This document shows, in pieces, positions 491-64,000 of a stretch of DNA of 64,000 bases. The notes beneath the pieces are model-generated. The model did no database searches. It saw nothing but the letters and a program-made list of their open reading frames with translations, and was not told the DNA's origin. Origin of the DNA: Stegostoma tigrinum (Eukaryota); the NCBI RefSeq assembly GCF_030684315.1, contig NC_081369.1:2780689-2844688 (forward strand). The letters run 5' to 3'. Numbering within the stretch: the first letter of the stretch is position 1; every line of letters begins with the position of its first letter. The translations under genes were made by a program, and so were the position numbers.

Positions 491-670
491 GATTTATTAT
501 TGTCACTTCTACGGAGGTACAGTGACAAATGTTGTTTTACATGCTTTACAAGTACATCGGAACGTACAGGTGCATCAGGGTAACAAGATGCATGTTCGTC
601 CGTCCCTTTGTTTTGCTGTTGGAATGTACTAGTAGTGTTTTAATACATATTTCCATCAATTTATTCGCTA

Positions 671-900
671 TGCCACCAACTCCACATCTGCCCGATCAGT
701 TCCTCACTCTCCTCTGCACAACAGGGGAAATTCATGTAGTTTGGTATACATCTGAGATCAACGCAACAGAAGTGTGGAAAGAGGGGAGTTTGTTTAAAGT
801 TCCCAGTGTTCTCAATCGTGTGGAGAGCGGATCGGCTTTCCGTGCTAGATTTTCCACACAACACTCAAGCCCCCAGCTAGTGTCAGTTACACGATTCAAG
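671..900 (+). pseudogene. Degenerate C1-set exon of receptor pseudogene A (paralogue of gene 1 exon 3)
   Basis: Reads PPTP-HLPDQFLTLLCTT-GEIHVVWY...KEGSLFKVPSVL, then after a frameshift C*IFHTTLKPPASVSYTIQ. This matches gene 1 C1 (PPTP..TLLCAT..EINITWY..KEGLYQISSYL..CEISHVSLYVPANDSY). The acceptor is TA instead of AG, the donor is G|at, the GFFP segment is deleted, and there is an in-frame TAG. Confidence 0.85.
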
Positions 901-2309
901 ATGAGAAATGTGAGCCTTTATTACTGTTTCTCAGACCCTAGTGTTGTGCGACATCCCGTGACCTATTTGATTCATTTTTAAAGTGTGATAGTGAAAAGCG
1001 CCACTGTCTGTAGCTTTTGCTTTCTTTTTGGCGAGGAACCTGACAACATGGCGTGATGTAAATTTGGTGGTACAACTTAGAATGCGGACTATAAATTTCG
1101 TAGCTAATCCATTTCATTCTCATGGCCTGAATTATTGACGATAGACCAGTGACATTGTGCATTTATTAGACATCACTTCATTTCACAGCATCCATGGACT
1201 TTCTACATCAAGATTTTTGCATGGCTTCTAATGACAGATGCAGAAGTGCAGGTCAAAGAATTGTTGAGAATCAAATTAAAAAAGACTTTAGTTCGATTCA
1301 GATGTGATCTAAACTCGATTTACATTTGGGAGGTTGCATAAAGTTTGCTTTGGCAATGTAATCGAAATAAACAGGGCTCATGACAGGTATGTTGGGGTAT
1401 AAAATAAGCGTGAGTAATAGAGCAGAGAAACTGCTGTCATTACGTTCAGAAAACTAAACGCCTGAAATCACTGGTATGACAGTGTAACAAAATCTAAAAT
1501 ACTGGTTGACTAATAGAGCCAAATCAATAAAACAAAATGGCTTTAATTAACCTGTCATTAGTAAGTGTCGTCTTGATTCTGTAACCCAGTCCTGGGCACT
1601 TGGTGAGAAAAATCTGAAGAATGTCCATCGGTTACTATACGTTTAAAAGAAAATTTCCAAAGTTATTGTGATTTCAGCATTTAAAATGGATAAACGTCAG
1701 AAGGTATTAATTACACAATGAAGGGGCCAGACTGTGTACATGTAGGTTTTATTTATCATCCCATTCCTTTTATTAAAGTCAATTGACTTTTTCCTGTATA
1801 GTTGTGGTTAATTTTTGAGCCACAATACAATAGTTGGCCGGTGTGCAAAAGCCTACCTAGATCCTCAAAGGAGGTGGGCTCTACCTGCTGCGTGTGTTGG
1901 TCACTGTTTTCAAAACGATCTAATTCTCAGCTGTTTCTATTATTTTTGTCTAATTACTTTTCTGTAATTTACACAGAGCTATTTAATTAAATTTAATAGA
2001 CACAATGATACTTAGAGATATGACACACAAATAAACAAACTTGCAGCAATATAGTCACATACATACTCTGAACTTGATTAACATTTGAAAATTATTCAGA
2101 ATTGATAGTCACGTTATATGTTATCATCTGTCACATTTTGTCAGGCTCAACTTTATCCCGAATAATGAATCAGGTGGAGCGTGCGTTGTACCCTCCATGA
2201 GAGACGATGTCCAAGTTATCGTCCTGGCTTTTTATGGTAAATTTGCTTTATTATTTATAACAGTCTTCTCTGCTGAATGGAAACATTCAACTTCTCCTGC
2301 ACCTTCCAG

Positions 2310-17468: not shown

Positions 17469-17520
17469 ATGGGAGTGCTGAATATCCTGTGCTCTATCTC
17501 AACCCTCGGCATTTACGCAG
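17469..17520 (+). CDS. Gene 1 exon 1: leader peptide MGVLNILCSISTLGIYA
   Basis: ATG in good context (aaaATGG), hydrophobic peptide, phase-1 donor G|gtattt, 183 nt upstream of the V exon and in frame with it. Homologous leader exons occur at 51214-51268 (-) and 61461-61515 (+). Confidence 0.85.
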
Positions 17521-17703: not shown

Positions 17704-18024
17704 TAGCTGATGGGAGCTCTCTCCGGATGGTTCAGTCCCCCATCCGTTTGACGGCGGTGAAAGGTACAAATGTGTCCATGAATTGCTCTTACACACTTTT
17801 CGATCCTAAAGCAATCCTGGATGTTTCCTGGTCGAGACGAAACCAGAACAGGTCATTCGAAGTGACAGCAGACAACAGGGAAGTAGTGATATATTCGAAG
17901 CCATCAGCGGCCGAGTTACACCTGCTGAATGTGGATTTTCAGGACACCGGAATCTATCAATGCAGCGCGAGAGACTGGAAACATAAAATTTCTTCTGGGA
18001 GTGGGACTGAACTTACTGTGCACG
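17704..18024 (+). CDS. Gene 1 exon 2: Ig V-set domain with germline-joined J-like motif
   Basis: Acceptor tttctcacag|, donor G|gtgagt, 321 nt, phase 1-1. Reads MVQSP..VSMNC..VSWSR..LHLLNVDFQDTGIYQC..SGSGTELTV, with B-strand Cys, C-strand Trp, DxGxYxC and GxGTxLxV. Confidence 0.95.
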
Positions 18025-29656: not shown

Positions 29657-29764
29657 CTACCAGTGACAGTATTTTGCAAAAAGTGGCTGGATGTGCTGTA
29701 GCAGGATTACTACTTCTAGTGTTGGTAATTGTTGTGATACTTTGCAAACTTAATACAATTAAAG
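29657..29764 (+). CDS. Gene 1 exon 4: stalk plus uncharged transmembrane helix
   Basis: Strong acceptor tctcccctttctttag|, donor G|gtaaga, 108 nt, phase 1-1. Reads ATSDSILQKVAGCAVAGLLLLVLVIVVILCKLNTIK. Too short for the ORF track. Confidence 0.9.
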
Positions 29765-31010: not shown

Positions 31011-31148
31011 AAGATAACAAAGTGTGAAGCTGGATGAACAAAGCAGGCCAAGCAGCATCTCAGGAGCTGCTTGGCCTGCTGTGTTCATCCAGCTTCACAC
31101 TTTGTTATCTTGGATTCTCCAGCATCTGCAGTTCCCATTATCACTGAT
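31011..31148. mobile_element. Short Penelope-derived insertion with a fold-back inverted repeat and 15-bp TSD
   Basis: ~46-bp inverted arms with one mismatch. Direct repeat gcaattctgatgcaa at 30998-31012 and 31149-31163. Confidence 0.75.
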
Positions 31149-31371
31149 GCAATTCTGATGCAATTTTGGTTTACTACACTCAGGCAGGAGCTTGTTCTTA
31201 TCTTCCACGATCATAGAATTTGACTGAATCAAACAATAACAGTATAACCACAAGATCAATGCTGTTATCCTTTAAGCCTGATTTATCTCATGTATACTGT
31301 TAGCAATTTTTGATGCTGCACTGTACTTATAATTAAGACTCAGATGGTATTTCTATAATATTTATCTTCAG

Positions 31372-31482
31372 AGAATACAACAAGGAGAGATGAAGTTTCC
31401 ATCTTATGCTCTTCTAAACTTCAGAGAATACAAGAGAAGTAGAAAGCACAGAAATAAGGAAGACCAAACTTTGTATGCAATG
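31372..31482 (+). CDS. Gene 1 exon 6: cytoplasmic exon with ITIM-like YALLNF and ITSM TLYAM(I/V)
   Basis: Acceptor tttatcttcag|, 111 nt, phase 0-0. Reads RIQQGEMKFPSYALLNFREYKRSRKHRNKEDQTLYAM, donor |gtacga. Confidence 0.8.
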
Positions 31483-31622
31483 GTACGACTGTAAAACCAA
31501 ACAATGTTTTCTAACTAAGGCTGCTCCAACACAAGTGCCTATTCCCATTGATGTACATTGAATACCTACAAAAGTTAATTTGACAAACAGCTGCCCTTGA
31601 TATTTCCTTGTTACTTTTACAG

Positions 31623-31715
31623 ATTAAAGAAGAGACAGAAGTAAATCCGACTTACGAGTCTCTGGATATGACCAATTTGCCAAAACAACAACAAGGAAAT
31701 AGACTGAAAACGTGA
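31623..31715 (+). CDS. Gene 1 exon 7: terminal coding exon IKEETEVNPTYESLDMTNLPKQQQGNRLKT*
   Basis: Strong acceptor ttccttgttacttttacag|, phase 0, third Tyr motif (NPTYESL), TGA at 31713-31715. Total CDS is 1014 nt = 337 aa plus stop. Confidence 0.7.
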   Translation: MKEETEVNPTYESLDMTNLPKQQQGNRLKT

Positions 31716-33039
31716 AGATAAGCAAGTCCAACAGAGAATCCAGAATTGTATAAGAAAAATATCCAGTTTTACTGGGTCTAGCCATCTTCTTGAACAGATA
31801 TGATGTCTGCCTGATTGAATTGGACTTATTATAAACCATATTATTGCCTATCAGAAAGGGTGCAAAGAATCAAAGATGCAAAGACAGAAATACGTTCACT
31901 TCTGGGCCTCTGTACTCCTTGGATAAGCCATATCTGTAAAAGTAAGGATTCTATGTATTAATTAACATCAGTTATTATAGATATTAAAGACAGTAGATGT
32001 CCCTTTTGTGCCCACTAGTTGATCACATTGGAGAGTTAGATCATCCACCTGAATCCACACTAATGCATTGCAGCCTTGCATTGTACCTTCTGCACATAAG
32101 AATCAGACCACACGCTCAACTGTTCTCTCCTAGGCTTTCTACTCCACCGAATCTCCACCCAACCCTGATTAACCTGAACCCACCAATCTATCCTTCTGTA
32201 CATTTGTTCCTGATGTAGCTATCAAACTTCTCCTTCAGTTTCTTTGTGTTTATCACAGCTAAAAACCCTACCAATAGAAAATTGCATACACCAAACATTT
32301 GCTGTGTGAAGAGCTTCTTCACAATGTATCAAGTCATAAAAATATATTTCTGGATTATAGTTCTCATCACACTCTGAAGTCAAAGTACCATTTCCACACT
32401 TTTCTTTAAATAGTTTTCATCATTTAAAAGAAAACTGTCAGTTCACCTGAAGAAGGGTCCCAACCCGAAACTTCAAGCTTTCTTGCTCTTCTGATGCTGC
32501 TTGGCCTGCTGTGTTCATCCAGCTTCACACTGTGTTATGTCAGTTCATCCATTGGCTTTAAAACAAAACATTTACAGGAAGACAACAGTACCACTCAAAC
32601 CAAAATCAGGAATGTCTACCCGATTGACTTTTCCAGAATACATATAACGCAACTCTTTTAATTTCAAAATGTATCCATCATTTCTTTGCCTGTTCTCAAT
32701 GGTGGCATCTTCAAAAAGAGCTGAGGAGAGAAATCCAAATATGGACCAGACTTTGAGAAAGGTACATTCCTTTTCATCTCAGTCAGAATGTATTGGCTGT
32801 TTAGTCTGTGTCATGAATCTAGATACCACAGCTAGTGGCAAACTCCTATTACCATCTACTGATCAAAAAATTTAAACACTTTATGTTTCAATTAGACCAG
32901 CAGATGATTTTTTTTCTTTTCAAACTTGAAGCAAGATGGGCCTATTTCATCATTTTCACCATAACGAGTCAATAAAATGAAGTCCACTGCACTTCCTCCA
33001 GAACAATTATTTCTTCCTTCTGAAAGAAGACCAGATATC

Positions 33040-46245: not shown

Positions 46246-47770
46246 GGGAATGCTGATAGGATCATTTGAAGAATGTTGAGAGCATTTTCTTAAAGAACAT
46301 AATGCTGTCAGGGATGACTCAAGTTGATTGAACTGCCATGCACTGCTCTTACTGTATAAATATGCTATATTTTATAATGCTGCAGAACTGACCCAATTAA
46401 CCAGCCTCATCTACTCTTAACTGAACAAACAAACGCACCTCACATTTCAGTGGACCAACTTTAAAACTTTGATGAATACTGTATTGCGTTGTGTCTTTTG
46501 AATAAATGTTGATTTCAAAGTGCTTATGACTAACCAACAATGTACAGATAGTTTCCATAAGTCATGAGCCATTTGTGACCAGTTCATTGCTGGACATTAG
46601 ACTTTGGATTCTTCATTTGGTTTGTTTAGCTTGATCTTTGCATATTCCATTCCCATTTTCTTACTGTTGCTTTTCTCACTTTTCACGCTCAAGTGTCAGT
46701 TTAATGTCACCACTTTGTTTAGTCTGAGGGAGTAACAATAAAAGATCAGTTGCACCTTACCTTCAAATGATTTGTTCCATTTTGTCAATATACATCTTTG
46801 AGATTAGACACTTGTACCTGGGCCCTCCTGGATGACAGACTCATACCAAGGCATAGATGGAGGGCTCTTCTACATGCCTGGATTTTGGAGTTTTCCTGTG
46901 CTTACCAAAACTGAGAGCTGCATTGGAAGGACTATTCACTTCTCTTCCATTCCTTGCCCGATGACAGATTTTTGAGAATTTTTTTTTGTGCACCACATGG
47001 AAAAAACACCATGCAGTACACAAGAGCCAATTCAGTCAGTCCTCACAAAGACAGATGAATAGAGCAGGGTAGATAGTAACTTTAACTCAGAAATACTCAT
47101 GGTCTGTTCTGTCATGAGCAAAAATAGTACTGCTAACTCAGAGAGTCATTGTAATTATGGTACCAATATACAGCATATTTCAATTTCTGTTTGGTGGGAA
47201 TGGAACTAACTTGCCCCTTCAACTGACCTGGTATGTCTTCGAAAATCTCTGTTCCTGTTGGAGAATGAAACTAATGCGAACAATAAAAGCAATCATGGTC
47301 ATGAGACATGACAAGCTCACCAAAAGTTACATAATATTGGAACAAAGTGACCAGATTCAAAATCAGTTGAAAATAACATTGAGTTTTACTTATGGATTCG
47401 ATATGGTCTTAGGTTCAATATATTCTTTTGCAATGCACATTTCACACTTTCTCACCCGGATTTGCCTGCTGCCTTGTTGCAGGATTAAAGATATTTAATT
47501 TACAGCATTCACACCATCCCCTTCAGTTTTTGCAGAGAGCAAAGGCATGGTTCACCTTAATACTGAGATGTTGACAAATTGTTCTGAAGGGCTCATTTTC
47601 GGACGTTGCCCATTTTGAATACTGAGACCCAGGAGGCCAACTGTTTTTACAAGTATCTGCATTGCTCTGAATATCTAGATCTAAGGCTGGACTGTACGCG
47701 TTCTCTGCTACAACATGCAACAATGAGTGGACCAAACAAAACAATTGAACACGATTGTATCAGTATTTAC

Positions 47771-51268: not shown

Positions 51269-53433
51269 TTTGACCAAAGTCGATAAAATCAAACTCTCTC
51301 TGCAAGTCGCTGGAAAATATCATAAACGTGCGGTACGGATAGAAGTACTTGAAGATAATATGGTATTGAGGGTGTCGCAATAAATCTTAGCAAATGTAAC
51401 TGTTTCTCCAACATGTGGGCTCTGGTTTCTGTTTGACGTCAGAGTTGACCGCGCATTGTAGAACTTGAAACATTTACTCTCTCATCGACCTTTAACACAA
51501 TAAGCATTTTTGCATGCTTCAAACAATTCCGATTTGCGGCAGCTCTGAACGAATTGTCAAGTTGACCAGCTTGTGTTCACATATCCATGGCAGTGTAATG
51601 AAACAGTCATCTCCATTCACCGTTTTCACTGCACCTCCAAGCATTTGGATGGATGTGTGCTGTGGAAACTCAACTGTACGTCTCAGTAGCACTGTGACTT
51701 TTCTGAATAGGAACGGTGTTTTGGTTTTGAGTCCTTCAGTTGACAAGGCACTCTGCAATTAATTGGCACGCGTGATTCTAACCACATTCATTGAAATTAT
51801 GGAATGGAAAATCATCCCAAATCTCACAAAACGTTGATCAAATGTCTTTCACACGCAATAACTTTTAGGGAAAACAGTTTTTCTAATTGCCCAGCACATG
51901 TTCAGTGTACAGTGCTGCTGGTGATTGTGCAATAATTGTGCACTTATTGTTAGTTTTTTTTTCTGCTGCCGACCTGTTTCCTGTGGTTTACTGGGTCAGA
52001 GTACTGCTGCTAGCAAGGTGCAGTTACTGAGATGGACCTGATGTATATTCTTGTGTCTGGCTGAGACAAGTGCTCGCGATGGAACATTTGCTATCGATCC
52101 TTTCTGTCTTCCATTGGTTTTGTTGGTTCTTCCGAGGAGATTTTGTTTCCTGCTGACTTATCACTTCTGCTGCTGTAACTTCATAATGTTTAACTTTGTG
52201 ACGGTGATCCCAACGAGTGTTTAGTGTTGTTGACCCTGTGTGTGCGTTCTTTTCGTGGAAACTCGATGTTGCTGGTCATGCTTCAGAGTTTCTGCTGGGA
52301 TTACACTCGTGCTGCAGGTGATAGTGCTACTCAATCCTACTCATTAGTGTGGTCTGGTCATCATGTTTATTTTTTAATGAATCCCACTGCTCGTTACCGT
52401 GTAGATCATTTTTCGCGATTGGGTGTTTCGACCATTGTTGGCTCAGTCGTAGTATTGCGAGAATATATGTTGACATGATTGCGGAAAATCTACATGTTTA
52501 AAAACATTCCCTGGTGAATTCTAACAGTTTTACTGAGCAAACATTTCCCAAAGGTGGCGTGAGTATATGTTTGTGACAAAAATGAGTAAGTTTTCTCGGA
52601 ATAACATATATACCTTTTGAATGGGTGCTTCTTGTGATTTGGTTTAATGTTTCTGTGCGTATACCTTACGCGAGTGCCTTGTGTTATTTGTATTTGAAAG
52701 CCAATATGTGTGTTAGTATTATTTTTTGATTACAGGTTTATGGGTGGTATTTTCGTGTGAGTTTATCTTGCTCTGGTGGAATGATTGCCACGTAAATGCT
52801 TCACTTTGTATAGTTGTGTGTATATCAGTGCTTTAGCTGTGTTTTCTGTCAGGTATTGCACCCGTTCATAATCATTACCCAAATAATTGGTTCCAAACCA
52901 ACTACAAGTATTCCCTTATGCATCTGCTCAACATTTGTTTATCCTTTCAATCTGATTGTTCCACTTATTACCTGGTACTTAATGCACTGATCAAGTCCTA
53001 TTTTGAGGTCGGACTTTCAGCTGGGTCTCTGGTACCTGAAATACTGAAGACAGTGCCTTGTCTAGCGAGTTTTGAGAAGATTTGTAGCTCAGGTTGAGGT
53101 TCTGGATGTGATATTGCGCTGAGCTGGAAGGTTAGTTTTCAGACGTTTCATCACTTTTTTTATTTGAAAAAATATACTTTATTCATAAGATGTACAAAAA
53201 AAACATATTTATACACCTACCCAGTCATGCAAGCCGCTCCGGGTTACCCAGGGGGTACATACATCAACTAAAGGGAAAAATAAAACAAAGAAGAAGAAAA
53301 AAACAAAGCAAAAAAAATACCCCAGCAGGTGTCACCCCACACAGTCCCAGTTGGCCCCCTGACCAGTTGAGGAAGGCGCCAGCTGGGCCCAGGTACCAGA
53401 TAAGGCCCTTTTTTCTATTCTGGACGAGGGGTT

Positions 53434-56400
53434 TCATACCATGGTCTTTTCCCACCGCGCCTTGGCGGCGGCTGCCCCAAGCTTTAGCGCGTCCTTCAGC
53501 ACGTAGTCCTGGACCTTGGAATGCGCCAGTCTGCAACATTCGGTCGGGGCCAGTTCTTTCAGCTGGCAGACCAGCAAGTTGCGGGCAGACCAAAGAGCGT
53601 CTTTCACCGCATTGTTGGTCCTCCAGGCGCAGTTGATGTTGGTCTCAGTGTGCGTCCCGGGAAACAACCCGTAGAGCACGGAGTCCCGCGTCACGGAGCT
53701 GCTCGGGACGAACCTAGACAAATACCACTGCAACCCCTCCAGACCTCCTGCGCATAGGCACACTCCAGAAGGAGGTGATCGACAGTCTCGTTCCCCCCGC
53801 AGCCACCTCGAGGGCAGCGTGCGGTGGCGCAGAGATTCCGGGCATGCATAAAGGATCTCACTGGCAGAGCCCCTCTCACCACCAGCCAAGCAATGTCCTT
53901 GTGCTTGTTTGAAAGTTCTGGCGATGAGGCATTCTGCCAAACGACATTGGCAATCTGCGTGGGGAACCACACGACGGGATCCACCCACTCCTTTTCCTGA
54001 AGGGTCTCGAGGATACTACGTGCTGACCACTGCCTGACGGCCTTGTGGTCAACGGTGTTTCCTTTCAAAAATTTCTCCACGAAGGATAGGTGGTACGGAA
54101 TGGTCCAACTACTTGGAGCATTCCGCAGCAACCAGGCCAGGCCCATCCTTCGCAACACTGGAGACAGGTAGAACCTCAGTAAGTAGTGACACTTGGTGTT
54201 TGCATACTGAGGATCTACGCACAGCTTGATGCAGCCGCATGCAAAGGTAGCCGTCAGGGCGAGGGTGCCATTCAGTACACCCTTTCCCCCATTTTCCAGG
54301 TCTTTGTACATGGTGTCCCTGCAGACCCGGTCCATTTTCGACCCCCAAATGAAGTGGAAGATGGCCCGGGTGACCACAGCGGCGCAGGTCCAGGGAATAG
54401 GCCAGGCCTGGGCCACATACAACAGTACCGAAAGCCCCTCGCACCTGACAACCAGGTTCTTACCCGCGATGGAGAGGGACCGGAGCGTCCACCTGCCCAG
54501 CTTCTGCTTCAATTTGGTGATACACTCCTCCCAAGTCTTAGTGCACGCCCCAGCTCCACCGAACCAAACACCCAGCACCTTCAGGTAGTCTGTCCTGACG
54601 GTGAAGGGGATGAAGGAGCGGTCGTCCCAGTTCCCAAAGAACATGACCTCGCTCTTACCCCTATTGACTTTGGCACCCGAGGCCAGTTCAACCTGGCCGC
54701 AGATGTCCAATAGTCTATTCACCGACCGACGATCGGTGCAGAAGACAGCGACATCGTCCATGTACAGGGAGGTCTTGACCTGACGGCCTCTGCTACCTGG
54801 GATAGTCACGCCCTTCAGGCTCACGTCCTTCCTGATGGATGCGGCAAAGGGCGCCACACAGCACACGAACAAGGCAGGAGAGGGCAGCCCTGCCTGACTC
54901 CCGATCTAACAGGGAAACTGTCTGATTCCCACCCGTTGATCGAGACTGCACTAATGATGTTGGCGTAGAGCAGCCGGATCCAATTGTGGATGCCCTCCCC
55001 AAACCCCAATTTGGAGAGGACGTCCCTCATGTAAGCATGAGAGACCCTGTCGAATGCCTTCTCCTGGTCCAGGCTGACGAGGCAGGTGTCCACCCACCTG
55101 TCCTGTACGTAGGCGATCGTATCCCTGATGAGCACGAGGCTCTCAGGGATCTTTCTGCCCGGCACAGCACAGGTTTGGTTAGGGTGAATGACCGACTCCA
55201 GGACAGACCTGACCCGGTTGGCTATGACCTTGGCCAGGATGTTGTAGTCCACGTTCAATAGTGAAATGGGATGCCAATTCTTAATTTCTTCCCTCTCCCC
55301 CTTCCTCTTCTAAATGAGGGTGATGATGCCCTTCCTCATGGACTTGCAAATTTCCCCTGCCCAAAGCGCACTATCGTACACTTCCAGCAGGTCCTGGCCG
55401 ACCAGGTCCCACAGAGCAGAATACAGCTCGACCGGTAAGCCGTCGCTCCCGGGAGTCCTATTCCTATCCAAGGACTTGAGGGCTCTGTCAGGTCGTCCAG
55501 GGATATCGGCCGGTCCAGCCACTCCCTCGTGCCATCTAAGACCTCCATGATAGACGACAGGAACTACTCAGAGGCCGTGCTGTCTGTAGGCTTCATGTCA
55601 TACAGTCCGGCATAGAAGGATCTGCTGATCCTTAAAATGTCGGGCCAAGACGACGTCACCGAGCCGTCATCCTCCTTCAGCCGGCTAAGCACAGAGCTCT
55701 CTTTGTGCACCTTCTGAAAGAAGAAATGCGAGCACATCTCGTCCTGCTCCACGGAGTGGGCCCTGGACCAGAAGATTATCCTGGAGGCCTCTGTGGTGAA
55801 GAGCGAGGCTTGCTGGCCCCTCACCTCGTGGAAGTCCTCCGTGACATCGACCCCCAATCAACTGCAGAATGAACAGGTTCTGCACCCTTTTCTGGAGTCA
55901 CGACTGCTTTCCCCGCCTCTCTCTCGCCTTCCGAACACCCTTGAGGACAAAGAACCTCTTGATGTTCTCCTTCACCGTCTCCCACCAGTCGCCCGGAGAC
56001 TCAAAAAGGGGTTTCATGGTTCTCCAACGGGCATACTCTTAAGTTCCTCAATGTTCTCTGGGGTCAACAGAGTCGTGTTGAGCTTCCACGTCCCTTTGCC
56101 GGCTGGCTGGTCATCCTGTAAGTGACAGTCGGCCAGCAGGAGGCAGTGGTCAGAGAAGAACACCGGCTCGACGCCAGTGGACCTGACCGAGAACGCCCAT
56201 GACACAAACAGGAAGTCTATCCTTGAGCGAATAGACCCGCCTGGCCTTGACCAGGTGTACCTCCGCTGCGCTCCATCTGCAGGGGTGCTGAAGACATCGA
56301 GCAGCTTGGCGTCCTTCACCGTGCCCATCAGGAATCTGGACGTGACGTCTAGTTGACTCCCCCCACCCGCTGTCCCCACGCCGGATCTTCCATCTGCGTC

Positions 56401-56840
56401 GATGATGCAGTTGAAGTCTCCGCCTAGGATGACCGGCCTGGACGTAGCCAGCAGGGATGGAAGCCACTGCAGGACAGCCAAGCACTCATTCCATACCACT
56501 GGGGCGTACACATTGATCAGCCTCAGGGGAGGGTTCCTGTAGGTGACGTCAGCCACTAGGAGGCGTCCCCCACCACCTCCTGAACTTGAGAGATGGTGAA
56601 GTCGTGCCCCCGCAGCAGAATAGCCAGGCCCGAGGACCGACAGTCGTTATCCCCCGACCAGATCAAAGGCCCACAGGTCCAGGCGCTGGACCATTTCCCG
56701 TACCTGCCGAGGTGCGGTATCCCGCACTCCTGCAGAAACAGGAAGTCCGCCTTGACGGTGGTCAGGTAGGCCAATGTGGATACACATCTTGCGGTGGACT
56801 TGACACTGCGCACATTAATGCTCGCAACTCGTACCCCCAT
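53434..56840 (-). pseudogene. Tx1 ORF2p (APE endonuclease, RT, C-terminal Zn motif), broken into at least 6 pieces
   Basis: MGVRVASINVR, FLQEC, LGGDFNC, RIDFLF, FFSDH, LDQEKAFDRVSH, GVRQGCP, YMDD and CPRGGCGGNETVDHLLLEC. Confidence 0.93.
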
Positions 56841-57282
56841 TGTGGGCAGTGACCGCAGTACCCTCCAGAAGTCCAAGGTCCAGCCCCTCCATCTGTCCCT
56901 TCATGACCATTGCCCGGGTTAACTGCTGGACGCTCTCCGGGCTCAGGAAGCCATCCGTGCTGCCTTCCGGGTGGCATCCCCCTGTCGGGGGTGCGGAGGC
57001 AGGAGGGTCCGGCTCTGGGTCAGGCTGGGGACGCGCTGTTTCCACCTTCCCGCCTGGAAGTTCCAGGGTGCCCTCCAGTGCCCCAGCGGCACTTGACCGG
57101 GTGTCGGAGGGAGCCTCAGGACACCTCCCGTCACCTGGAAGTGTGGTGCTGCTTTCCTTCTCCCTCGAGATCTTTAACTTCTGCTTCAGGCAGGACCTCT
57201 CCGAATTCCCCTCGTCAGAGGAGCTCTTATAGCCCCCCTGTAGCTGCCTCTTCCCACCTGATGGTTGCGGTTCCTGGGCCCA

Positions 57283-58260
57283 TCAACGCACCTTCCTCCT
57301 CGCTTTCCGGACTGTTGTCCACTCCCCTGGGTCGCCTGTCACCGCCTCCATCGACTCCAGGTTGTCGGGGGGGAGCGGAGACTGCAGGGGCGCTTTGCTG
57401 GCCTCAGGCCCATCCTGCAGGGCTGGGCCCTCCTGCACATTACTGCGGTCCTTGCTGGGCCCTGGTGCCTTCCTCTCCTCTGGGGGGGCTGGCCCCACAT
57501 TGCCCCTGCTGGCAACCTGGGCATAGGTGGTCCCCCGCTGCGGGCATGCCCTATAGAGGTGTCCCGCTTCCCCGCAAAGGTTGCAGCTTTTCTTTTGTGG
57601 GAAATCCTTTGCAAGGTGTCCCTCCTCCCTGCAGTTTCTGCAGATGGTGGCTTTGCAGTCGGCCGCCACGTGACCTGACCGACCACAGGCATGGCAGACT
57701 TTGGGTTGCCCTGCATAGGTCAGGTAGCCCTTGCTCCTGCCGATTACGAAGCTGGACGATGGGTGTACGATGTTCCTGTCCGCGCCCATCCTCAGCGTCA
57801 CCCTGACCTGCCTCTTACTGGTCCAGATGCCAAAGGGGTCCATGATGTCAGTTAGGTCTCCTTCCACCTTCATGTACCTTCCAAGTAAGGTCAGGACATC
57901 AACTGCTGGCACATGCGGGTTGTACATGTGTACAGTCACCATACGGCTCCTCTGCACTGGCATCACAAACAGCGGGACAGCGGTCAATACAGAGAGGGGA
58001 CCCTCACCTCCTTTCTCCTTGAAAACCTCCAGGAAGCGCTTGCAAAGCTTGGCACTCCTGAAGGTCACATCGTAAAAACCTCCTCCGGGGAAATCCTGCA
58101 GGCAGTAAATGTCCGCAGCAGCGAACCCACAACAGTCCAACAGGACCCTCTTCATGAAGAAGGTGCGGCCCACAGGTACACATTCATCTACCTTCTTCAC
58201 GGCAACGTGGATGGTGTTCCGGACCCCCTGACCTGGGGCACGAGCACTTGCCACAGCCAT
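57283..58260 (-). pseudogene. Tx1 ORF1p (ZCCHC3-like, three CCHC zinc knuckles); original frame probably ran to ~56840
   Basis: MAVASARAPGQGVRNT... with CHACGRSGHVAADC, CRNCREEGHLAKDF (degenerate) and CNLCGEAGHLYRAC. Confidence 0.9.
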
Positions 58261-58459
58261 CGTTGCAGGTTGGCTGCTCCCCTGAACCAGAGTTAGGACG
58301 AAGCCAGCATTAAGATCCACTGGTCGCAAGGGTGCACAGCCAACCTGACGTCTTCCTTTCACCTCCAACACAGCACTCTCCTCCTCTCGGTCCACAAGAA
58401 GAGTGGGTCTTTATTTTATTCCAGATGTAAGCTGGTTCACTGTGCTTGAAGGTTTGTTC

Positions 58460-61515: not shown

Positions 61516-61820
61516 GCACATGCTCCTTCTTACAGTGTTTGAAATATTCTTGATCGAGGTGTAAGAATAATTGAACTAATTTGTGACGGATAATCGGATA
61601 CTTCATGTTTTTCACATCAGTGTTCCTTTTCCTAGAAAACCTCTGGATACGTGAAAAAATATTTGCGACAGTTCAGTTAGGGCAGGATTTCAGATAGTGG
61701 AGCAGGATTCAAAGAGCAAGGCATGCTAAAATTCTACTGTGTGAGTGTATTGGATTAATTATGTTATATCATGTGGTCCATCTTCCCTGTTTCATCAGAA
61801 CATGTATCTTTTGTTAACAG

Positions 61821-62132
61821 TTGCTGTGTGCACTTCGAACAATGTTACTCCGAATGTTATGCTAATAAGGACCCTGATACAGTCAACAGTTACCATGCGA
61901 TGCCCTTTCTCCTTCGAACTCAACCACTCAAACATAAATGTTTACTGGTTCAGAGAAGGTAAAAAGATGCTTCTCCAGGACGACAGCAGAGCACTCTTTC
62001 ATGTAAAGAGAGGGGGAGCCTACCTTCATCTCTTCAATGTGACTGTCCGGGACGCTGGAACATATTTCTGTGCAGTCAAAAATCAGCATCAAACGGTTGA
62101 TAACAAACCCTCTGCGCAACTTGATGTCTACG
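61821..62132 (+). CDS. Gene 2 exon 2: Ig V-set domain
   Basis: Acceptor ttttgttaacag|, donor G|gttagt, 312 nt, phase 1-1. Reads VTMRCPF..VYWFR..YLHLFNVTVRDAGTYFCAV..AQLDVY. Confidence 0.93.
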
Positions 62133-62439
62133 GTTAGTGCAAACAGAGTTAAACGTTAACGTTTGGCTCCAATGAACGATGAATGTGTTAGCAAAAAATT
62201 TTTTCGTAAACATATACAGTGCATATAAAAGCGTTCACTTCTTTGGAACCTTGTGTTCAACAATGTACACAACAAAAACACATCATAGTAACATTACACA
62301 GTTCAGCAACTGCACTATGTCAGCAACTGGTTTTTAGTTATGGAGTGGAGAAAGCTAATGCAAAACTTTCATGTGAGGCACTTCTTACAATGTGAGCTTG
62401 GAGTAACGGAGTGAATTTGTCTGGAGCTTATTGGCAATA

Positions 62440-62690
62440 TTAAGCATCTCTAAGGCTTTTGAGTAGGTTTGTAGCTCGGGTTGTGGATGTTGTGGTTTGT
62501 TGGCTCTTCCAATTGGCTCGTTGTTCCGCAGACGTTTCATTACCCTGCTGGGGAACATCATCACTGTCTTTCCGGGAAAGGACAACAGTGCTTCATCGGA
62601 GGCTACACCATCGATGTTCCCCAGCAGGGCAATAAAAAGTCTGCGGAACAACGAACCAGCTCGGCGAGCCAGCCAACCACAATGTTAAGC
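62440..62690. mobile_element. Penelope terminal-repeat fragment with partial inversion, in gene 2 intron 2
   Basis: Related to 53060-53154 and 58420-58520. rc contains gtgatga-t-gttccc..gggtaat-gaaa-cgtc-tg; 62640-62682 is inverted relative to 62490-62532. Confidence 0.65.
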
Positions 62691-63255
62691 ATTTTAAATG
62701 TCCTTTTATTTTTAACTTTGAAAAGCCAAATTCCTATTCCCCTCGTTTAGATTGTGGCCGTCTCATTTTCTATGATCCAATTGCCAAACCGCTGATTGCG
62801 AGGAGGGAGACAACGCAAATGTATTTGTATTGATTAAGAGATAACACAGGGTGGAACTGGAGGAACACAGCAGGCCAGGCAGCATCACTGGAGCAGGAAA
62901 GTTGACGTTTCGGTCGGGGTTTACCCTTCCGAAAAAGGGGTCTCCTTCTTTGTGCTCCTCCAGCTCCACGCCGCGTTTATTTCTGATTCCAGAATCTGTA
63001 GTTCTTACTATCTCGTTGTATTAATTAATATGGACACAAGGTAGTATCCAATTTTGCTGAACGTGCAGGTAATGTACCAATTGCATTAGGACGTCGCGGC
63101 ATGAAAAATGTAATAACAACTCCCGCCACTATAAGTAATGACGATCATTGCAGCTGCCATATCCAGAAGTAACAGCTGGTTAGTTCATTAAATCATTTAA
63201 GTTTTGGTATAGAAGCCCAGTGTTCACATTTATGTGAATTTTATTTACAATACAG

Positions 63256-63561
63256 CTTCACCAGCTCCCCTAAACATTGTATTGATACGTTCCGAAGATC
63301 CTTCATCTGCTTCTTTCAAGCTGCAATGCAGAACATCTGGCTTTTATCCGGAATACTTTAACCTGACTTGGCACAGAAACGGGGCACAAATCTTCACTGG
63401 ATTTAGAAATGAAAAACAGGCAAAAGGCGAGGGACTTTATGAAGTGGTCAGCTCTTTGGACATACCAAATATACCGGAAAGTGACACAGTCTACATGTGT
63501 CATGTGTATCACGTTTCAAGCGCATTTCCAGCAAATGCCAGCTGCACTGTGACGAAAGACG
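63256..63561 (+). CDS. Gene 2 exon 3: Ig C1-set domain (gene continues beyond window)
   Basis: Acceptor aatacag|, 306 nt, phase 1-1. Reads LQCRTSGFYPEYFNLTWHRNG..EGLYEVVSSL..YMCHVYH..PANAS. The donor G|gtaagattct is identical to that of gene 1 exon 3. Confidence 0.95.
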
Positions 63562-64000
63562 GTAAGATTCTATGACACGATGTACGTTAATCTTTCAGAC
63601 ATTGTTTAAAAACGTTGACCGAGTAGAAAGTGGTTGCTAAATTCAGTTGCCTCCCTTATGTCAATCCCGAAATTTGACACGATTGTACAGTTAAGGGTTT
63701 CCTTACTGCAACTTATTCCGAAGGTGTGTGGTATATTGTTAGGTCAGATACTCCAATACAGGACATTCGTCATCGAGGGGTCCCGTAGTTTAAGTACATT
63801 ATGTTGCAATTTACTGTGAATAACTGGAAATCTTAAAGAGGGACAAAGAACTAGAGAGGAATATCAACACGTTATCCAGCACAGATGAGGCCGTTTGATC
63901 CATTGACTGCACTGTACCTATTTACATTCATCACACTTTCCAGCAATTAGCCCATAACCTTGAATTTTATGACAATTTAAATGCTCATCCACGTTCATTT

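What the first reader, a model, noticed from the sequence alone, without database searches (positions are those of the whole stretch)
31372..31715. Cytoplasmic tail mirrors the first three tyrosine motifs of SIRP-alpha
Seen: the tail reads ..PSYALLNF..EDQTLYAMI..NPTYESLDMTNL, with Tyr1-Tyr2 23 residues apart and Tyr2-Tyr3 13 apart. TLYAMI fits the ITSM consensus TxYxxV/I. The other two are YxxL with a non-canonical Pro at -2, and the third is also an NPxY. From memory (not computed), human SIRP-alpha has ITYADLNL..TEYASI..LTYADLDMVHL..SEYASV; the order and flanking residues (YxxLN, TxYAxI, TYxxLDMxxL) match for three of the four. Inference: tail homology supports real SIRP ancestry and SHP-1/SHP-2 recruitment, and the fourth motif is missing.
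Basis: partly seen in the sequence, partly recalled or inferred. Interest (0 to 1): 0.75.

Follow-up and report, generated by a model that had tools for sequence, protein, structure and literature searches.

The report
Shark SIRP-like receptor tail, truncated
This is the signalling tail of a shark immune receptor whose gene family carries four tyrosine motifs lined up like those of the 'don't-eat-me' receptor SIRP-alpha; this gene has lost the fourth, likely still works as a brake by recruiting SHP phosphatases, and is likely a cousin of SIRP-alpha rather than its direct counterpart.

Summary
The three motifs and their spacings (23, 13) are real. They end an intact seven-exon, 337-aa V-C1-TM gene; an epaulette-shark orthologue matches exon for exon. 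The gene belongs to a clustered shark/ray/chimaera family whose usual tail has four tyrosines: two ITIM+ITSM modules, one per exon. The fourth motif was lost secondarily: a six-codon deletion shared with the orthologue, then a one-base frameshift in this gene only. NPxY and 'LDMxxL' are recent, not inherited. A TM+tail profile searched against 1.84 billion proteins gave 13 non-family hits of 52; the only amniote ones were four SIRP-alpha tails, but six teleost receptors scored alike. A tail-only profile ranked SIRP-alpha first (43-47 bits against 23-37). Against orthology: one C1 instead of two, an intron inside motif 2 (mouse SIRP-alpha has its motifs in exon 8), and a different chromosome. 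That chromosome is, however, a genome-duplication sister of the one carrying SIRP's neighbours. Best reading: a SIRP-related sister family; SHP binding is untested. The scan noted this family before, here and in other genomes, and databases already model it.

The parts
17469..17520 (+). Exon 1, leader peptide (phase 1 end)
   Evidence: ATG and GT donor
17704..18024 (+). Exon 2, V-set domain with germline J-like GxG end
   Evidence: Pfam V-set E 1.5e-12; 63% to P0036
22753..23028 (+). Exon 3, the single C1-set domain
   Evidence: Pfam C1-set E 1.2e-14; 76% to P0036; no second C1 in the gene
29657..29764 (+). Exon 4, uncharged transmembrane segment
30223..30275 (+). Exon 5, 53-nt cytoplasmic linker exon (phase 1 to 0)
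   Evidence: needed for frame; 76% to P0036
31372..31482 (+). Exon 6, module A: ITIM-like PSYALL (Tyr 31405), basic spacer, ITSM TLYAM| (Tyr 31474)
   Evidence: 72% to P0036
31483..31622 (+). 140-nt phase-0 intron after pY+2 of motif 2; the donor GT reads as Val if unspliced
   Evidence: GT directly after Y-x-x in 11 of 19 automatically picked paralogous exons
31623..31715 (+). Exon 7, module B: supplies Ile of motif 2, motif 3 PTYESL (Tyr 31653), then a frameshifted end and stop
31682..31753 (+). Relic of the ancestral C-terminus in a shifted frame: 1-nt gap near the A-run at 31680 and an 18-nt gap at the site of motif 4
   Evidence: above 2000 of 2000 shuffles and 2000 of 2000 random window peptides against P0021 and P0020; 64% to the in-frame end of P0036

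Best explanation
The stretch encodes the last two exons of an intact shark V-C1 membrane receptor that likely acts as an inhibitory receptor and likely shares ancestry with SIRP-alpha as a sister family, not as its orthologue. Shown: the family tail is two tandem copies of one exon, each with an ITIM and, 23 residues on, an ITSM-like Tyr; this gene keeps module A whole and only the ITIM of module B. Inferred from known ITIM biology: ligand binding leads to Src-family phosphorylation of Tyr1 and Tyr2, which together engage the two SH2 domains of SHP-2 or SHP-1, as the 24-residue SIRP-alpha pair does; Tyr3 is likely accessory and drifting. Inferred history: a six-codon deletion removed motif 4 before the split from the epaulette-shark lineage, and a later one-base loss changed the last 12 residues. 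Inferred origin: the cluster lies on a genome-duplication sister of the chromosome that carries SIRP's neighbours, so shark family and amniote SIRPs may be duplicates with reciprocal loss.
For: Tail: 52 hits at E<=0.001 among 1.84 billion proteins; 39 family, 13 other, of which 4 SIRP-alpha (2 bird, 2 bat) are the only amniote ones. A TM-free profile of 22 hand-picked two-module family tails (window gene left out) gives best single stretches of 43.1-47.3 bits for 5 of 5 SIRP-alpha tails, over nearly the whole profile, against 22.8-36.7 for 5 teleost controls. Slot-specific flanks agree: N at +4 of slot 1 (11 of 22), D at +4 of slot 3 (10 of 22), LTYA in slot 3, xEYA in slot 4. Ectodomain: family V profile scores SIRP V 18-22 bits, TCR V 5-15; SIRP-alpha clusters are the top two Atlas feature hits for P0021 (0.96, CD33 0.94); SIRP-alpha is third of 41 PDB hits for P0021 and the first non-immunoglobulin. 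Loss of motif 4. Sister chromosomes: MTG and NDRG families sit on C5, C19 and C23, SEP and syntaphilin families on C5 and C23. SIRP-alpha's two-Tyr peptide activates Shp2 in vitro (PMC5589908, passages).
Against: Six teleost receptors of other families, one amphioxus protein and two low-complexity proteins scored 37.4-44.0 bits in the library search, around or above SIRP-alpha's 35.6-39.1; whole-sequence scores of three teleost controls (46-54) equal or beat SIRP-alpha (46-49). Teleost spacings (23-14, 23-15-25) fit the family's 23-13/14-23 better than SIRP-alpha's 24-17-26. Against bat SIRP-alpha the signal beyond the motifs is weak (10 and 15 of 400 shuffles reach it; for P0021 and P0009, 67-184 of 400). 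C1 scores do not separate SIRP (33-45) from a shark MHC-II-like C1 exon (46) or frog Ig-like domains (36-39). No SIRP chain among 42 PDB hits for the window V or among the listed fold matches. Bat SIRP-alpha as query found none of its 14 hits on C19; bird SIRP-alpha 2 of 3, all near 29 bits. No B7H6, NKp30, tapasin, PD-1, Siglec or CD300 sequence was in hand as a control. Both ITIMs here have Pro at -2, whereas the orthologue has Leu.
Confidence: 0.55

Rival explanations
1. The family is an independent V-C1 radiation (nearer B7H6, tapasin-like or PRARP genes) and its tail resembles SIRP-alpha only because tandem-SH2 phosphatases impose the same ITIM-23-ITSM pattern, doubled by exon duplication in several lineages.
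For: Module number varies from one to three inside the family (P0008, P0030, P0052). Unrelated teleost tails carry the same repeats and score close. ITIM/ITSM pairs occur in PD-1 and CD28HL3 (PMC11599192, passages). Intron, domain count and location differ from SIRP-alpha. Database names for members are split among SIRP-like, NCR3LG1-like, tapasin-like and others.
Against: SIRP-alpha leads on tail, on V and in the Atlas; no other amniote ITIM receptor reached E<=0.001, though their presence in the library was assumed, not checked; the cluster is on a sister chromosome of the SIRP region.
Confidence: 0.3
2. The family is the direct shark orthologue of the SIRP cluster, moved to another chromosome, and members are CD47 receptors; SIRP later doubled its C1 and lost the tail intron.
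For: No better SIRP candidate in this genome (best 33.8 bits); no Ig exon in 200 kb around the SEP gene on C23; short-tailed members with charged residues near the membrane exist, as in paired SIRPs.
Against: Needs three further events; residence on a sister chromosome is explained more simply by duplication; the CD47 profile found nothing (which itself warns that this shows no absence).
Confidence: 0.07
3. This particular gene has a decaying tail and acts as a weak inhibitor or decoy.
For: Frameshifted end, loss of motif 4, Pro at -2 of both ITIMs and Glu at +1 of motif 3 where 20 of 22 family tails have Ala; several neighbours are broken.
Against: All seven exons are open with canonical splice sites; exon A is 72% identical to the orthologue and motif 2 is a canonical ITSM; Pro at -2 of slot 1 occurs in 5 of 22 family tails.
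Confidence: 0.08

Closest known systems
SIRP-alpha (SHPS-1/CD172a; bird P0091, bat P0094)
   Same: Germline VJ-type V domain, C1-set domain, uncharged TM, short linker exon(s), four-Tyr tail of two ITIM+ITSM-like pairs with matching flanks in the family consensus.
   Different: One C1 instead of two; spacing 23-13/14-23 against 24-17-26; motifs on two exons against one (mouse exon 8, PMC9071265 passage); this gene has only three motifs; different chromosome; ligand unknown.
Database-modelled cartilaginous-fish V-C1 cluster (RefSeq names 'tyrosine-protein phosphatase non-receptor type substrate 1-like', 'NCR3LG1-like', 'tapasin-related-like'); orthologue P0036 = XP_060693842.1
   Same: Same exon plan and tail; P0036 groups with the window gene at 100/100 support.
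   Different: P0036 has Leu at -2 of both ITIMs, no NPxY and no frameshift; most other members keep motif 4 and have a non-canonical TVYAQT in slot 2.
B7H6 / NCR3LG1
   Same: V-C1-TM layout (recalled); many members are named after it by databases.
   Different: B7H6 is a ligand for NKp30 without this four-Tyr tail (recalled); no B7H6 sequence was available to compare.
Teleost inhibitory Ig receptors (P0083, P0085, P0087, P0092, P0093) and NITRs
   Same: Repeated ITIM+ITSM-like modules with basic spacers and similar spacing; NITRs also have VJ exons (bioRxiv 2021.06.11.448072, passages).
   Different: No C1-set domain in the controls; NITR second domain is I-type.

Membership tests
SIRP family | N-terminal V domain with germline J-like GxG strand | tested here: met
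   SIRP is listed among joined-VJ genes in PMC11599192 (passage)
SIRP family | V-C1-C1 ectodomain | tested here: not met
   One C1 exon in the gene; SIRP-alpha P0091 and P0094 have two. Some mammalian SIRPs also deviate (recalled).
SIRP family | V and C1 closer to SIRP than to other Ig families | tested here: inconclusive
   V favours SIRP over TCR V, C1 ties with MHC-II-like and Ig C1; Atlas favours SIRP-alpha; PDB sequence and fold searches of the window V do not; no B7H6/NKp30/tapasin control
SIRP family (SIRP-alpha type) | Four cytoplasmic Tyr motifs in two pairs | tested here: inconclusive
   Met by the family (Tyr in 20, 18, 22, 22 of 22 hand-picked two-module tails); not met by this gene, which has three
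SIRP family (SIRP-alpha type) | All motifs in the single last exon | tested here: not met
   Mouse: exon 8 (PMC9071265); bat isoform junction lies before motif 1; shark intron splits motif 2
SIRP family | Location beside NSFL1C/SNPH (human 20p13; gene map recalled) | tested here: not met
   All 38 C1 and 16 V hits on C19; SEP and syntaphilin families on C5 and C23; no Ig exon in 200 kb on C23; C19 is a sister chromosome
SIRP family | Paired activating members with a charged TM residue | tested here: inconclusive
   Short-tailed members with Arg/Asp at the TM edges; adaptor coupling untested
SIRP family (SIRP-alpha type) | CD47 binding | not testable with these tools
   CD47 TM profile gave no hit in this genome, uninformative by the tool's own control
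ITIM/ITSM inhibitory receptors | ITIM plus TxYxxV/I at tandem-SH2 spacing | tested here: met
   23 residues against 24 in SIRP-alpha; ITIM here has non-canonical Pro at -2, orthologue canonical
ITIM/ITSM inhibitory receptors | Phosphorylation-dependent SHP-1/SHP-2 binding | not testable with these tools
   needs phosphopeptide binding
B7H6/NCR3LG1 | Orthology by sequence and NKp30 binding | not tested
   no B7H6 sequence retrieved; three papers on it were not held
NITR | V plus I-type second domain | tested here: not met
   second domain is C1-set

The most novel reading that the evidence does not exclude
SIRP-type inhibitory receptors are as old as jawed vertebrates or older: one VJ-C1 receptor with a doubled ITIM+ITSM tail was duplicated with the genome, sharks, rays and chimaeras expanded the copy on the human-16q-type chromosome, amniotes the copy on the chromosome-20-type one. 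The shark tail would show the ancestral two-exon build, in which the Val codon ending the first module became the splice donor, and motifs are gained and lost lineage by lineage.
Probability: 0.3. Interest if true: 0.7.

Novelty: new variant of a known kind. Interest (0 to 1): 0.48.

Why it matters
A recent survey files the SIRP family under Tetrapoda (PMC13262535, table passage). A SIRP-related family in sharks, rays and chimaeras would move the lineage back to the base of jawed vertebrates and give a testable origin for the SIRP-alpha tail and for the CD47 checkpoint. The orthologue series also offers natural variants with two, three, four or six tyrosines for testing which pair recruits SHP-1 or SHP-2. 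The single gene in this window is an ordinary, partly eroded member.

Tried and rejected
RNA check: no RNA holder listed, so splicing rests on splice signals and the orthologue's model. V-domain word search for longer relatives: 0 of 219 candidates. Exon A search in the own genome found only itself; paralogous tails were found with profiles instead. TM+tail profile against PDB: 2 TM-only hits, nothing on motifs. V profile against PDB was swamped by multi-domain chains; the V fold search gave generic Ig matches (model pLDDT 76.9). Opioid-peptide profile as a synteny marker gave one hit on C11, uninformative. CD47 profile: no hit, uninformative. A paper search for PD-1, BTLA and Siglec motifs returned nothing, so those controls were not scored directly. 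PMC6194019 mentions NSFL1C but does not state adjacency to SIRP genes; that map is recalled. In one search the third comparison used the wrong frame of the minus-strand relic and was dropped. In one search the first script's second V query was corrected for a frame slip, so one search's negative rests on three good queries plus a motif scan. NPxY as a conserved endocytosis or PTB site was rejected: absent from the orthologue and present in 1 of 31 family ITIM slots, at another slot. Assembly error as cause of the early stop was rejected. No complex prediction was run, as phosphotyrosine cannot be modelled with it.

Full report
Observation. The stretch holds two phase-0 exons, 31372-31482 and 31623-31715, with canonical splice signals. 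Upstream lie a leader, a V-set exon, one C1-set exon, an uncharged TM exon and a 53-nt linker exon; together 337 aa without internal stop. The ordered triple arose in 2 of 200,000 shuffles. Contigs from 4 of 4 DNA runs (one study) match 31128-32200 exactly. No RNA holder was listed.

The family. V and C1 searches in the own genome gave 16 and 38 matches, all on contig C19, in two clusters (2.1-3.0 and 9.2-10.3 Mb; lower bounds). Relatives come from sharks, rays and a chimaera and bear mixed database names. P0036 from the epaulette shark is the orthologue: 63% identical overall, every exon tested matching, sister to the window gene at 100/100 in a V+C1 tree of 38 rows.

How the tail is built. 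Paralogues carry one exon type repeated: an ITIM, a basic spacer and a second Tyr 23 residues on. In 11 of 19 automatically picked exons a GT donor follows Y-x-x directly; the rest were mis-picked tyrosines, terminal exons or altered donors (one more is visible). The donor reads as Val if unspliced, so I infer that the Val codon of a terminal YxxV became the donor when the exon was duplicated. Module number runs from one to three. In 22 hand-picked two-module tails the four Tyr slots are filled in 20, 18, 22 and 22 rows, with consensus LxYAxLNL, TVYAQT, LTYAxLDL and xEYAxI/V.

The missing fourth motif is a loss. Against four paralogous last exons the window gene shows a 1-nt and an 18-nt gap. 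Past the first gap a shifted frame matches the C-termini of P0021 and P0020 better than 2000 of 2000 shuffles and 2000 of 2000 random window peptides, and matches the in-frame end of P0036 at 64%. P0036 lacks motif 4 but has no frameshift, so the deletion came first and the frameshift later, in this lineage (parsimony). Whether the Tyr codon itself was deleted or substituted is ambiguous in the alignment. P0036 reads LSYAAL, TLYAQI and LIYVSL: NPxY and the Pro before Tyr3 are recent. Of the flank 'LDMxxL' only LD is a family trait (M at +5 in 0 of 22; L at +8 in at most 1 of 22).

Is the tail SIRP-like beyond the generic pattern? A profile of seven TM+tail stretches was run over 1.84 billion proteins: 52 hits, 39 family members (by name or by V/C1/tail score) and 13 others: four SIRP-alpha (birds 39.1 and 37.7 bits, bats 37.0 and 35.6), six teleost proteins (37.4-42.5), one amphioxus protein and two low-complexity ones (P0088 was not looked up by name). 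No PD-1, Siglec or CD300 appeared, but I did not check that they are in the library. Pairwise, the window tail scores 65 and 64 with bird SIRP-alpha, 55 and 50 with bat, 44-59 with five teleost tails; with motifs held fixed, 0 of 400 shuffles reach the bird scores, 10 and 15 the bat scores, 1 the best teleost score. A TM-free profile of the 22 tails gives SIRP-alpha best stretches of 43-47 bits and teleost controls 23-37, though summed repeats lift three controls to 46-54. So SIRP-alpha is the best colinear match, by a modest margin, and the teleost controls are the best of a very large library. The tail raises the odds of kinship but does not prove it.

Independent lines. For: SIRP V domains score above TCR V with the family V profile; SIRP-alpha clusters top the Atlas feature search for P0021; SIRP-alpha is the first non-immunoglobulin PDB hit for P0021 and for the window C1. 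Against or neutral: C1 scores tie with MHC-II-like and Ig domains; window V finds no SIRP in PDB by sequence or among listed folds; reciprocal searches are weak, with 2 of 3 bird-query hits and 0 of 14 bat-query hits on C19. Mouse SIRP-alpha has its ITIMs within exon 8 (PMC9071265, one passage), unlike the split shark tail. SEP (NSFL1C-type) and syntaphilin families lie on C5 and C23, not C19, and 200 kb around the C23 SEP gene hold no Ig exon. C19 carries MLYCD, an amino-acid transporter exon 120 kb past the cluster and an exon I recognise as OSGIN-like from memory (no Pfam hit), which points to the human 16q linkage group (recalled map). MTG and NDRG families each occur on C5, C19 and C23, one NDRG gene about 200 kb from the second cluster, so C19 and C23 behave as genome-duplication sisters; that two families suffice rests on the recalled 8q/16q/20 paralogy.

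Mechanism. Shown: motifs, exon build, losses. Inferred: Src-family phosphorylation of Tyr1 and Tyr2 and two-point binding of SHP-2 or SHP-1, by analogy with the SIRP-alpha peptide that activates Shp2 (PMC5589908, passages). Slot 2 is non-canonical (Thr at +3 in 13 of 22) in most four-Tyr members but canonical here and in P0036, which may offset loss of motif 4; the cases may be a single clade. Ligand and expressing cells are unknown.

Literature. Ten searches found no paper describing this shark family or its tail; subscription papers are not covered and four wanted papers were not held. Seen as passages only: PMC13262535 (SIRP under Tetrapoda), PMC5413580 (SIRP-alpha motifs across mammals), PMC10751288 and PMC11599192 (joined-VJ genes), bioRxiv 2021.06.11.448072 (NITR/DICP), PMC6194019; PMC12227049 as part 1 of 8 plus passages (no mention of SIRP). 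No supplements were read; those of PMC13262535 and PMC11599192 may bear on SIRP's range. Earlier scan notes describe the same family here and in other genomes.

Verdict. Real feature; inhibitory tail of a SIRP-related shark family with a secondarily lost fourth motif. Works like SIRP-alpha: likely. Member of the SIRP family in the strict sense: not filed, since domain count, intron position and location were tested and not met. Shared ancestry as a sister family 0.55, convergence 0.3. Interest 0.48.

Noticed in passing
window 46596-47000, minus strand: Decayed paralogous tail (about 60% DNA identity, intron included): slot 1 Tyr changed, last exon frameshifted but motif 4 still readable; no TM exon found between 46.9 and 61 kb.
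   Followed up: partly
window 61745-63572 and G000:C19:2857095-2857480: Next V-C1 gene (database model P0009) has a complete four-Tyr, two-exon tail.
   Followed up: yes
G000:C19:2961307-2982860 (L032-L034): Intact close paralogue whose motif 4 Tyr is Cys while slot 2 ends in Ile, like the window gene's canonical slot 2.
   Followed up: partly
P0020, P0039, P0042, P0044: Great white shark and devil-ray members have lost slot 2 instead of slot 4; each lineage keeps at least one ITIM plus ITSM-like pair.
   Followed up: partly
G000:C19:9222621-9611648: Six near-identical C1 exons at about 77-78 kb intervals: a recent tandem amplification inside the second cluster.
   Followed up: no
window 53400-58400, minus strand: Decayed non-LTR retroelement with zinc-knuckle, endonuclease and reverse-transcriptase-like frames, recognised by eye.
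   Followed up: no
window 526-978: 151-aa open frame with a faint C1-like look but no Pfam hit; possibly a dead exon.
   Followed up: partly
P0089 (thorny skate) and P0001: Models with two near-identical C1 domains (V-C1-C1), showing that C1 doubling can arise inside the family; could be real duplications or modelling errors.
   Followed up: no
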